Positions 20,742 through 21,470 of a stretch of DNA of 64,000 nt are shown here, piece after piece. The notes under the pieces were generated by a model, which had not been told where the DNA came from, searched no databases, and saw only the letters and a program-made list of their open reading frames with translations. Position numbers and translations under genes: made by a program. The number at the start of each line of letters is the position of its first letter. Position 1 is the first letter of the stretch. Location of the stretch: NCBI RefSeq assembly GCF_054482595.1, contig NZ_CM137008.1. One strand, 5' to 3'.

Positions 20742-20824
20742 ATCCCTTCTCCACACCGTTGCCGCGTTGCGCATTCTACTTTGCGAGTCTGCTCCAGAAA
20801 ATAAATCAAAGTCAGATCAATGCG

Positions 20825-20852
20825 TTGTGTTTATTTAATGGGGATTTACGAT
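20825..20852 (+). promoter_or_regulatory. putative ibs (copy 1) sigma70 promoter TTGTGT-N16-TACGAT
   Basis: -35/-10 hexamers about 65 nt upstream of the toxin ATG; conserved in copy 2. Confidence 0.45.
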
Positions 20853-20874
20853 GGCGGGACAGCACAGGGCTGTA

Positions 20875-21018
20875 ACGGTAAAGCCCTCACCGAAGCGAGG
20901 GCTTGAAGGAGAAGGGTTATGATGCGACTTGTCATCATACTGATTGTACTGTTACTCATAAGTTTCCCAGCTTATTAACAGTCAGTCTCAGGGGAGGAGT
21001 AATCCTCCCTTACCCTTA
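20875..21018 (-). ncRNA. Sib-like antisense sRNA (type I antitoxin), copy 1; ends approximate
   Basis: Minus-strand promoter TTGACA-N17-TAATTT (21053..21025) giving TSS near 21018; transcript fully antisense to ibs ORF and SD; 3' hairpin gccctcgcttcggtgagggc. Confidence 0.55.
20919..20978 (+). CDS. Ibs-family type I toxin, 19 aa (MMRLVIILIVLLLISFPAY), variant copy
   Basis: Short ORF below ORF-track cutoff; SD AGGAG 8 nt upstream; hydrophobic 19-mer matching the Ibs family. Confidence 0.7.
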   Translation: MMRLVIILIVLLLISFPAY

Positions 21019-21024
21019 CTCACT

Positions 21025-21053
21025 AAATTAGGTTAAAGAATCAACGATGTCAA
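21025..21053 (-). promoter_or_regulatory. Sib copy 1 promoter (consensus -35 TTGACA, 17-bp spacer, -10 TAATTT)
   Basis: Read on minus strand: TTGACATCGTTGATTCTTTAACCTAATTT. Confidence 0.6.
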
Positions 21054-21216
21054 TCAGGGCGATGCGGGATGTATCGCCCTGAACCGATCATTTGATAGAC
21101 ACTTCATCGCCCACGTTTACTGCCGTAATTAATCCCTTATCCCTGCAATGTGTGTCTGTCTTACATGACGTTTTACGAGTGCGCTCGAAGAAAAAATTTA
21201 AAGGTAGATCAATGCG

Positions 21217-21244
21217 TTGTGCTTATTTAAAGAGAGTTTACGAT
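21217..21244 (+). promoter_or_regulatory. putative ibs (copy 2) promoter TTGTGC-N16-TACGAT
   Basis: Same position relative to ATG as copy 1 (392-bp period). Confidence 0.45.
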
Positions 21245-21266
21245 GGCAGGGCAGCATGGGGCTGTA

Positions 21267-21410
21267 ACGGTAAAGCCCTCACCGAAGCGAGGGCTTGAAG
21301 GAGAAGGGTTATGATGCGACTTGTCATCATACTGATTGTACTGTTACTCATAAGTTTCAGCGCTTATTAACAGTCAGTCACAGGGGAGGAGCAATCCTCC
21401 CTTACCCTTA
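21267..21410 (-). ncRNA. sibC: Sib-like antisense sRNA (probably SibC), copy 2; ends approximate
   Basis: Minus-strand promoter TTGACA-N17-TAATTT (21445..21417); antisense to ibs ORF; 3' hairpin. Confidence 0.55.
21311..21370 (+). CDS. ibsC: Ibs-family type I toxin, 19 aa (MMRLVIILIVLLLISFSAY), matches my recollection of IbsC
   Basis: Short ORF with AGGAG SD; serA-ygfA intergenic location matches the sibC/ibsC locus. Confidence 0.75.
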   Translation: MMRLVIILIVLLLISFSAY

Positions 21411-21416
21411 CTCACT

Positions 21417-21445
21417 AAATTAGGTTAAAGAATCAACGATGTCAA
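21417..21445 (-). promoter_or_regulatory. Sib copy 2 promoter (TTGACA-N17-TAATTT)
   Basis: Identical to copy 1 promoter. Confidence 0.6.
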
Positions 21446-21470
21446 TCAGGGCGATGCAGGTGTGTCGCCC

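What the first reader, a model, noticed from the sequence alone, without database searches (positions are those of the whole stretch)
20797..21470. Tandem duplication of an ibs/sib type I toxin-antitoxin unit in the serA-ygfA spacer
A roughly 390-bp unit is repeated twice in tandem (period 392 bp measured between the two toxin ATGs and between the two antisense promoters). Each unit has a 19-codon hydrophobic ORF with a strong SD, an upstream plus-strand promoter-like TTGTGY-N16-TACGAT, and on the opposite strand a near-consensus promoter TTGACA-N17-TAATTT positioned to make a roughly 140-nt RNA fully antisense to the toxin ORF and its SD. As I recall, K-12 has a single sibC/ibsC unit at this locus, so the copy number here appears to differ.
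Basis: partly seen in the sequence, partly recalled or inferred. Interest (0 to 1): 0.7.

Follow-up and report, generated by a model that had tools for sequence, protein, structure and literature searches.

The report
Two tandem ibsC/sibC toxin-antitoxin units
The serA-fau(ygfA) spacer of this E. coli window holds two tandem copies of the known ibsC/sibC small-toxin/antisense-RNA module; this two-copy form occurs in about a third of complete E. coli genomes and is already annotated, so it is ordinary.

Summary
A 289-nt direct repeat (20780-21068 / 21172-21460) is 91% identical with a period of 392. Each copy gives a full-length Rfam SIB_RNA match on the minus strand (138 and 135 bits; threshold 56). 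Each copy also has a 19-codon ORF on the plus strand: MMRLVIILIVLLLISFPAY in unit 1, and MMRLVIILIVLLLISFSAY in unit 2, which is identical to K-12 IbsC.

Aligned to K-12 sibC (b4446, 141 nt), Sib-2 differs at 1 nt. Sib-1 differs at 4 nt, three of them at +49-51. These three bases are the apical loop of target-recognition domain 1 and are also ibs codon 17. Target-recognition domain 2, which covers the anti-Shine-Dalgarno sequence, is identical in the two copies. I therefore predict that each Sib can still repress both toxins.

K-12 does have one unit here (spacer 391 nt against 783). However, 1857 of 5426 complete E. coli genomes (34%) carry the two-copy form, including O157:H7 and O26:H11. 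RefSeq already annotates both ibsC genes in strain XH990, which is 100% identical to the window over the 1001 nt compared. Published work already notes tandem ibs-sib copies and seven Ibs genes in O157:H7 Sakai.

The two-copy form looks old, and single-copy alleles look like collapsed unit-1/unit-2 chimeras. Verdict: a correct annotation of a known system, of low novelty.

The parts
20710..20736 (+). serA intrinsic terminator hairpin; left boundary context, not part of the strong repeat
   Evidence: Terminator scan. serA ORF ends at 20690.
20780..21068 (.). Repeat unit 1 (ungapped core of the tandem repeat)
   Evidence: 289 nt, reference copy.
20825..20852 (+). ibs-1 promoter: -35 TTGTGT (20825-20830), 16-nt spacer, -10 TACGAT (20847-20852)
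   Evidence: Sequence read. The inferred +1 at 20859 is 18 nt upstream of the complement of the Sib 3' end, matching the 18-nt 5' overhang and the 159-nt ibsC mRNA reported in PMC2943612.
20859..21017 (+). ibs-1 mRNA (inferred, 159 nt), with Shine-Dalgarno AAGGAG in 20906-20911
   Evidence: Projection of the K-12 ibsC mapping (PMC2943612) onto the window.
20919..20978 (+). ibs-1 ORF, 19 aa, MMRLVIILIVLLLISFPAY; differs from K-12 IbsC at residue 17 (Ser to Pro)
   Evidence: The 100% identical DNA in strain XH990 is annotated ibsC, WP_071525914.1.
20877..21017 (-). Sib-1 antitoxin RNA, 141 nt. TRD1 (+46..68) = 20950-20972; TRD2 (+99..115) = 20903-20919; terminator hairpin 20881-20904.
   Evidence: Rfam SIB_RNA 138.3 bits. 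Alignment to K-12 sibC b4446 gives differences at +18 and +49-51. Fold z = -5.2.
21025..21053 (-). Sib-1 promoter: -35 TTGACA (21053-21048), 17-nt spacer, -10 TAATTT (21030-21025)
   Evidence: The +1 at 21017 corresponds to the annotated 5' end of K-12 sibC.
21055..21081 (.). GC-rich hairpin CAGGGCGAT...ATCGCCCTG at the right edge of unit 1. It is a duplicate of the hairpin next to the fau stop codon.
   Evidence: Sequence; alignment.
21069..21171 (.). Inter-copy spacer, absent from one-copy alleles and diagnostic of the two-copy state. Its right half is a diverged copy of the region upstream of the ibs promoter.
21172..21460 (.). Repeat unit 2
   Evidence: 91% identical to unit 1.
21217..21244 (+). 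ibs-2 promoter: -35 TTGTGC (21217-21222), 16-nt spacer, -10 TACGAT (21239-21244)
21251..21409 (+). ibs-2 mRNA (inferred, 159 nt)
   Evidence: Projection as for unit 1.
21311..21370 (+). ibs-2 ORF, 19 aa, MMRLVIILIVLLLISFSAY, identical to K-12 IbsC
   Evidence: Annotated ibsC, WP_010723220.1, in XH990.
21269..21409 (-). Sib-2 antitoxin RNA, 141 nt; one difference (+30) from K-12 SibC. TRD1 = 21342-21364; TRD2 = 21295-21311.
   Evidence: Rfam 134.6 bits; fold z = -5.8.
21417..21445 (-). Sib-2 promoter: TTGACA (21445-21440), 17-nt spacer, TAATTT (21422-21417). Identical to the Sib-1 promoter.
21449..21470 (.). Hairpin GGGCGA...TCGCCC directly after the fau stop codon (21471-21473, minus strand). 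Probably the fau terminator or an insulator upstream of the Sib-2 promoter.
   Evidence: The function is inferred.

Best explanation
The region holds two adjacent, apparently intact copies of the chromosomal ibsC/sibC type I toxin-antitoxin module of E. coli.

How each unit is built. A weak plus-strand promoter makes a ~159-nt ibs mRNA that encodes a 19-residue hydrophobic membrane toxin. A minus-strand promoter with a perfect -35 box makes a 141-nt Sib RNA that is fully complementary to the toxin ORF and its ribosome-binding site.

How repression works, as shown for K-12 SibC. Sib contacts the mRNA first through two independent target-recognition domains. TRD1 is an apical loop that pairs inside the ORF. 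TRD2 is a single-stranded anti-Shine-Dalgarno segment. Pairing then spreads, translation is blocked and the mRNA is degraded, so the toxin is normally not made.

How the two units compare. They differ at 5 of 141 Sib positions. Three of these are the TRD1 loop bases +49-51, which are also ibs codon 17 (Pro against Ser). TRD2, both Sib promoters and the Shine-Dalgarno sequences are identical.

Inference about cross-talk. TRD1 is copy-specific, but each Sib can still repress the other unit's toxin through TRD2. The pair is therefore a partly redundant double module rather than two insulated ones.

History. The two-copy allele is an old, common polymorphism of the locus. One-copy alleles such as K-12's most likely arose from it by unequal crossover between the units.
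For: Shown here:
- The repeat: 289 nt, 91% identity, period 392.
- Two full-length SIB_RNA matches of 138.3 and 134.6 bits against a gathering score of 56.
- Sib-2 differs from K-12 sibC b4446 at 1 nt, and Sib-1 at 4 nt. ORF 2 is identical to K-12 IbsC.
- Both Sib RNAs fold alike (z = -5.2 and -5.8). The differences fall in hairpin loops (+18; +49-51) or, at +30, in a region whose predicted pairing differs between the copies; the overall architecture is the same.
- Promoters and Shine-Dalgarno sequences are intact, and the Sib promoters are identical.
- Computed TRD1 duplex energy is -38 kcal/mol for cognate pairs and -26 for non-cognate pairs. TRD2 is -27.6 in all four combinations.
- DNA identical to the window over the 1001 nt compared, in strain XH990, carries two annotated ibsC CDS.

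From the literature:
- TRD1 is +46-68 and TRD2 is +99-115. Either one suffices for repression. Changing G49CU51 switches TRD1 specificity. ibsC mRNA is 159 nt with an 18-nt 5' overhang (PMC2943612).
- ibs-sib loci are typically tandemly duplicated, and O157:H7 Sakai has seven Ibs genes (PMC2887945).
- A Salmonella homologue, IbsA, lowers ATP by binding Fo subunits a and b (bioRxiv 10.1101/2025.05.26.656083).

Population and history:
- 1857 of 5426 complete genomes hold the spacer, in three allele classes. O157:H7 EC4115 and O26:H11 have two units.
- A divergent Escherichia lineage, about 89% identical, also has two units with a homologous spacer.
- Units at the same position in different strains are 91-97% identical across lineages, while unit 1 against unit 2 is about 78% over the full 392-nt period.
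- The single unit of Ec-U14-2 equals the unit-1 left part plus the O26 unit-2 right part at every variable column.
Against: - No expression or toxicity data exist for this strain or for the unit-1 (Pro17) peptide.
- Cross-repression through TRD2 is extrapolated from engineered K-12 SibC variants and has not been tested on these natural alleles.
- The direction of the copy-number change is not settled. Three cryptic-clade or outgroup Escherichia genomes have one unit. All E. coli single-copy alleles examined share the same apparent crossover point, which could instead mean that the single-copy state is ancestral and that each unit changed on its own after the duplication.
Confidence: 0.88

Rival explanations
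1. The second copy is a recent, strain- or lineage-specific duplication gained relative to a K-12-like ancestor. This is the reading the first reader implied.
For: K-12 and many A and B2 strains have one unit. Three outgroup Escherichia genomes also have one.
Against: - The two-copy allele is in 34% of complete genomes, spread over three diverged spacer classes that are 82-100% identical to the window's spacer.
- It is also present in a lineage only about 89% identical to the window.
- The two units are 9% diverged in the core and about 50% diverged in the upstream part, whereas units at the same position in different strains are 91-97% identical.
- Some single-copy alleles carry a core of unit-2 type joined to the unit-1 left flank.
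Confidence: 0.04
2. One of the two units, most plausibly unit 1 with Pro17, is an inactive or decaying copy. Only one functional toxin-antitoxin pair would then remain.
For: Decay does occur in this family. E. whittamii has lost the ibs start codon while keeping Sib. O157:H7 TR01 has lost both cores.
Against: - Both units keep the ORF, the Shine-Dalgarno sequence, both promoters, the terminator and the full Sib fold.
- The Pro17 peptide (WP_071525914.1) is the only IbsC in single-copy O25:H4.
- Pro at the aligned position occurs in other natural units: FPAY in the cryptic-clade MOD1 single unit, the SCPM-O-B-8794 unit 2 and the O26 unit 2.
Confidence: 0.06
3. Both units are active but fully insulated: each Sib represses only its own ibs mRNA, as reported for the K-12 paralogues SibA-E.
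For: The three TRD1 loop bases that differ between the units (+49-51) are the ones whose change re-targets SibC in PMC2943612. In the 10 two-copy genomes sampled, the two toxins carry different names or, where checked, different protein accessions. In the four genomes whose sequence I read, the units differ at codon 17 and/or codon 16, that is Sib +49-52.
Against: TRD2 and its target are identical in the two units. In K-12, SibC lost repression only when both TRDs were changed. Non-cognate pairs here still share 90 contiguous complementary nucleotides (+52 to +141).
Confidence: 0.2

Closest known systems
sibC/ibsC of E. coli K-12 MG1655 (b4446/b4665), Rfam RF00113 SIB_RNA
   Same: Same locus (serA-fau), same orientation, same 141-nt RNA length. 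Unit 2 has an identical toxin and a Sib differing at 1 nt; unit 1 differs at 4 nt and one residue. Promoters, terminator, TRD2 and fold are the same.
   Different: There are two units instead of one, separated by a 103-nt spacer that K-12 lacks. Unit 1 has a different TRD1 loop (UGG instead of GCU at +49-51).
Tandem sibA-sibB and sibD-sibE pairs of K-12 (the SIB/QUAD repeats)
   Same: Two ibs/sib modules lie head-to-tail in one intergenic region with a period of about 335-376 nt. The paralogues differ most in the TRD regions (PMC2943612).
   Different: Those pairs share only the ~200-nt core with the window units, at 66-76% identity, and their spacers are unrelated. The two units here are far closer to each other (91%) and keep an identical TRD2.
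Two-copy serA-fau alleles of O157:H7 EC4115, O26:H11 11368 and E. coli XH990 (RefSeq annotation)
   Same: Same architecture and a homologous spacer. XH990 is 100% identical over the 1001 nt compared. Both toxins are annotated as IbsC or Ibs family toxin.
   Different: Allelic differences only: codons 16-17 encode FG/LP (O157), FG/FP plus A5 (O26) and FP/FS (window). Spacer identity to the window is 92% (O157 type) and 82% (B1 type).
zorO-orzO / zorP-orzP copy-number polymorphism in E. coli
   Same: A chromosomal type I toxin-antitoxin locus present as 0, 1 or 2 tandem copies in different strains. K-12 has the reduced state, and antitoxin-only remnants occur (PMC11264685; PMC2887945).
   Different: It is an unrelated toxin family at a different locus, and its antitoxin is not fully antisense to the ORF.

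Membership tests
Sib antitoxin RNA (Rfam RF00113) | Match to the SIB_RNA covariance model at or above the gathering score, over the full model | tested here: met
   138.3 and 134.6 bits against 56; model positions 1-147 of 147 for both copies.
Sib antitoxin RNA (Rfam RF00113) | RNA of about 140 nt with its own promoter and an intrinsic terminator, collinear with an experimentally defined Sib | tested here: met
   both copies align without gaps to the 141-nt K-12 sibC, with 1 and 4 differences. TTGACA-N17-TAATTT lies upstream. A terminator hairpin plus UUUACC is at the 3' end.
ibs/sib type I toxin-antitoxin module | An 18-19 codon hydrophobic ORF with a Shine-Dalgarno sequence, on the opposite strand and wholly inside the Sib transcription unit | tested here: met
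   19-aa ORFs at 20919-20978 and 21311-21370, inside Sib 20877-21017 and 21269-21409. Shine-Dalgarno AAGGAG. Identical DNA is annotated ibsC in RefSeq.
ibs/sib type I toxin-antitoxin module | The two target-recognition domains (TRD1 loop, TRD2 anti-Shine-Dalgarno) are exposed in the Sib fold | tested here: met
   +48-55 is an apical loop and +107-113 is single-stranded in both predicted folds. Domain coordinates are from PMC2943612. This rests on prediction, not probing.
ibs/sib type I toxin-antitoxin module | The peptide is toxic when expressed, and toxicity is relieved by the cognate Sib | not testable with these tools
   The unit-2 peptide is identical to K-12 IbsC, which was used in the repression assays of PMC2943612. 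The unit-1 Pro17 peptide is, to my knowledge, untested.
ibs/sib type I toxin-antitoxin module | Both RNAs are actually transcribed in this strain | not testable with these tools
   No transcriptome data are available here. The promoters are conserved.

The most novel reading that the evidence does not exclude
The serA-fau locus may be a dynamic two-state array. An old two-copy allele would repeatedly collapse to one copy by unequal crossover near the ibs -10/+1 region, producing chimeric units. In arrays that keep both copies, selection would hold the TRD1 loop (= ibs codon 17) different between the copies while TRD2 stays shared. That would be a natural 'half-insulated' pair of antitoxins. 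This reading would link the hypervariable codon 17 to RNA-RNA specificity rather than to toxin function.
Probability: 0.35. Interest if true: 0.35.

Novelty: already known. Interest (0 to 1): 0.12.

Why it matters
For annotation, it matters that this strain carries one more IbsC-type toxin and one more Sib RNA than K-12. PGAP annotates the toxin CDS but lists no Sib RNA at this locus in the RefSeq records I viewed.

Biologically it adds little. The family, its mechanism, its tendency to occur in tandem and its copy-number variation among strains are all published. The two-copy allele is in a third of E. coli genomes.

The only mildly useful point is that natural unit-1/unit-2 pairs differ at exactly the three TRD1 bases that were engineered in the K-12 specificity study, while sharing TRD2. 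They are therefore ready-made material for testing cross-talk between near-identical type I modules.

Tried and rejected
- The generic sigma-70 promoter scan found nothing in the region. Its rule needs at least 4 of 6 matches in the -10 box, and TAATTT has 3. I rejected this as evidence against the promoters, because they are collinear with the mapped K-12 ones.
- I looked for homology between the 103-nt spacer and the sibA-B or sibD-E spacers, or other parts of the window. There is none. The spacer is specific to this locus.
- An exact 20-mer scan of genome contigs with the Sib terminator hairpin gave 21 loci. Only four were Escherichia; the others (Alistipes, Rikenellaceae, Microbacterium and so on) I judged chance matches to a GC-rich palindrome from the organisms and the palindromic motif alone; I did not scan them. 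E. albertii, E. fergusonii and Salmonella were not captured, so the direction of the change remains incompletely resolved.
- Fozo et al. 2008 (Mol Microbiol 70:1076), the primary description of Sib/Ibs, could not be opened by DOI or by a guessed PMC id. What it says about copy number at this locus could not be checked.
- Literature searches for names of an extra copy (sibF, ibsF, sibC2 and similar) and for 'SIB repeat/QUAD/serA/ygfA' found nothing relevant.
- The 19-aa peptides are below the 20-residue minimum of the protein-family tools, so no NCBIfam or Pfam test was run. RefSeq annotation of identical DNA was used instead.
- Assembly artefact and mobile-element explanations were considered and dropped. 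The structure recurs in 1857 complete genomes at the same locus, and there are no inverted repeats or transposase genes.

Full report

Yes. The repeat finder reports a single direct-repeat family in 20300-22000. Its copies are 20780-21068 and 21172-21460: 289 nt, 91% identical without gaps, start-to-start spacing 392.

- Two ATGATG starts at 20919 and 21311.
- 19-codon ORFs MMRLVIILIVLLLISFPAY and MMRLVIILIVLLLISFSAY.
- An AAGGAG Shine-Dalgarno sequence.
- Plus-strand TTGTGT/TTGTGC-N16-TACGAT.
- Minus-strand TTGACA-N17-TAATTT, starting at 21053 and 21445.

One correction is needed. TAATTT matches TATAAT at only 3 of 6 positions, so only the -35 box is 'near-consensus'. The generic promoter scan requires at least 4 of 6, which is probably why it returned nothing.

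**2. What is it?**

An Rfam scan of the whole window gives two full-length SIB_RNA (RF00113) matches on the minus strand. They lie at 21053-20903 (138.3 bits) and 21445-21295 (134.6 bits), against a gathering score of 56. The window is E. coli: the 1001 nt around the locus are 100% identical to strain XH990. RefSeq annotates that stretch as serA, ibsC (WP_071525914.1), ibsC (WP_010723220.1), fau (= ygfA), ssrS, zapA.

I aligned the window to the annotated 141-nt sibC of K-12 MG1655 (b4446):
- Sib-2 (21409 to 21269) differs at one base, +30.
- Sib-1 (21017 to 20877) differs at four bases: +18 and +49-51, GCU changed to UGG.
- The unit-2 toxin is identical to K-12 IbsC. The unit-1 toxin has Pro17 instead of Ser17.

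Both RNAs are predicted to fold in the same way: a P1 closing stem, three internal hairpins, a single-stranded CUCCUUC segment and a terminator. The fold z-scores are -5.2 and -5.8. The differences at +18 and +49-51 lie in hairpin loops. The +30 difference sits in a region whose local pairing differs between the two predicted folds, without changing the overall architecture.

Han et al. (PMC2943612) reported a 159-nt ibsC mRNA with an 18-nt 5' overhang over SibC. Projected onto the window, this places the ibs +1 at 20859 and 21251, seven bases after the TACGAT boxes.

**3. How does it work?**

The mechanism is established for K-12 SibC/ibsC (PMC2943612). Sib recognises the mRNA through two independent domains:
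- TRD1, +46-68, is the P5 loop. Its target lies inside the ORF.
- TRD2, +99-115, includes the single-stranded J1/7 segment. Its target is the translation-initiation region.

Pairing spreads from these contacts, and the mRNA is repressed and degraded. Either domain alone is enough. Changing G49CU51 re-targets TRD1 to ibsD, and repression of ibsC is lost only when both domains are changed.

In the window, the five differences between Sib-1 and Sib-2 are +18, +30 and +49-51. The copies therefore differ at exactly the three TRD1 loop bases used in that study. On the coding strand those bases are the whole of codon 17 (CCA against AGC). TRD2, the Shine-Dalgarno region and the Sib promoters are identical.

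Computed duplex energies agree with this picture. TRD1 gives about -38 kcal/mol for cognate pairs and about -26 for non-cognate pairs. TRD2 gives -27.6 in all four combinations. Non-cognate pairs keep 90 contiguous complementary bases.

My inference, which is not shown experimentally, is that TRD1 is private to each unit while TRD2 allows each Sib to repress both toxins.

On the toxin side, a recent preprint reports that a homologous 19-aa Salmonella IbsA lowers ATP by binding Fo subunits a and b. Whether IbsC does the same is not known.

**4. Is the copy number unusual?**

K-12 does have one unit: the serA-fau spacer is 391 nt there against 783 nt here. But the 103-nt inter-copy spacer (21069-21171), which one-copy alleles lack, is found in 1857 of 5426 complete E. 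coli genomes (34%). It falls into three allele classes:
- At least 99% identical to the window: 55 genomes.
- 90-95% identical, the O157:H7 type: 311 genomes.
- 80-90% identical, the B1/O26 type: 1491 genomes.

O157:H7 EC4115, O26:H11 11368 and bovine strain 138 all show two annotated Ibs toxins at this locus.

[quoted passage not shown] It also counts seven Ibs genes in O157:H7 Sakai (PMC2887945), against the five Sib RNAs described for E. coli by Han et al. (PMC2943612) and annotated in K-12 MG1655. The 'strain-specific' aspect therefore disappears.

**5. History of the locus**

The two units are much closer to each other (91% over the core) than to the K-12 paralogues sibA/B and sibD/E. Those share only about 200 nt at 66-76% identity and have unrelated spacers.

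Units at the same position in different strains are 91-97% identical across lineages, whereas unit 1 against unit 2 is about 78% over the full period. With outgroup sequences included, the right half of the spacer proves to be a diverged copy of the region upstream of the ibs promoter; for example, GCTCGAAGAAA is shared by unit 2 and the outgroup units. The duplication is therefore old.

A genome labelled E. coli SCPM-O-B-8794, only about 89% identical here, also has two units with a homologous spacer. E. whittamii, Escherichia sp. E1V33 and MOD1-EC7003 each have one unit.

Single-copy E. coli alleles carry different toxins:
- K-12 has FSAY, the same as window unit 2.
- O25:H4 has FPAY, the same protein as window unit 1.
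- Ec-U14-2 and JNEC-KY178 have the O26 unit-2 protein.

At the variable columns, the Ec-U14-2 unit equals the unit-1 left part joined to the O26 unit-2 right part, with the switch near TTTACGATGGC. This favours collapse from two copies to one by unequal crossover.

Two observations leave the direction of change open. The outgroups are single-copy, and all the single-copy alleles share the same apparent switch point.

**6. Comparison with known systems, and verdict**

Every sequence-level defining feature of the Sib/Ibs family is met: the covariance-model match, a collinear 141-nt RNA with promoter and terminator, a fully overlapped 19-codon ORF, and exposed TRDs. Toxicity and expression cannot be tested with these tools.

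The finding is a correct annotation of a known module, in a common and already annotated two-copy allele.

One point is of modest interest. Natural co-resident units differ at or beside the TRD1 specificity triplet while TRD2 is identical, or one base different in the O157 and O26 arrays. I confirmed this by sequence in the four two-copy genomes I read. It is consistent with the different toxin names or protein accessions in the 10 two-copy genomes sampled. This suggests partial insulation of the two modules.

Novelty: already known. Interest: low.

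Noticed in passing
L019 (E. whittamii Sa2BVA5), about 4646-5050: The single sibC-type unit keeps a scoring Sib (95.6 bits) but has an 11-nt deletion that removes the ibs start (GGGTTATGATG), so it is an antitoxin-only remnant. About 20 nt after its right-hand hairpin resemble the start of the two-copy spacer. Unrelated AT-rich DNA then follows where fau would be.
   Followed up: partly
L005 (E. coli O157:H7 TR01), 892-1101: The serA-fau spacer is only 210 nt. A deletion runs from the ibs-1 +1 region to the Sib-2 -35 box and removes both toxin/antitoxin cores, whereas other O157:H7 genomes have two units.
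   Followed up: partly
window 20967-20969 and 21359-21361: The trinucleotide that varies most between units and between strains (CCA, AGC, GGA) is exactly ibs codon 17 (Pro, Ser, Gly). It is also Sib +49-51, the TRD1 loop bases that Han et al. mutated to switch specificity.
   Followed up: partly
window 20810-20830 and 21202-21222: A block GATCAATGCGTTGTG that overlaps the ibs -35 box and extends upstream of it is nearly invariant in the serA-fau units compared, outgroups included: two of thirteen units differ by one base. It is not shared with ibsD/E, whose homology starts only at the -10 region. It may be a locus-specific regulatory site.
   Followed up: no
window 21449-21470 and 21055-21081: The GC-rich hairpin directly after the fau stop codon lies just upstream of the Sib-2 -35 box and was duplicated with the unit. 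It probably terminates fau transcription and shields the Sib promoter from read-through.
   Followed up: no
window 22094-22277 (-): 6S RNA (ssrS), 139.8 bits. The mechanical ORF 21471-22217 runs through it, but annotated fau is only 603 nt (21471-22073).
   Followed up: no
window 4798-4840 (-): Rfam match to ES036 (CssrF) sRNA: 42.5 bits against a gathering score of 37.6.
   Followed up: no
E. coli genome searches: One match to the locus lies on a plasmid record. One genome has two separate matches to the inter-copy spacer, which may mean a three-copy array.
   Followed up: no
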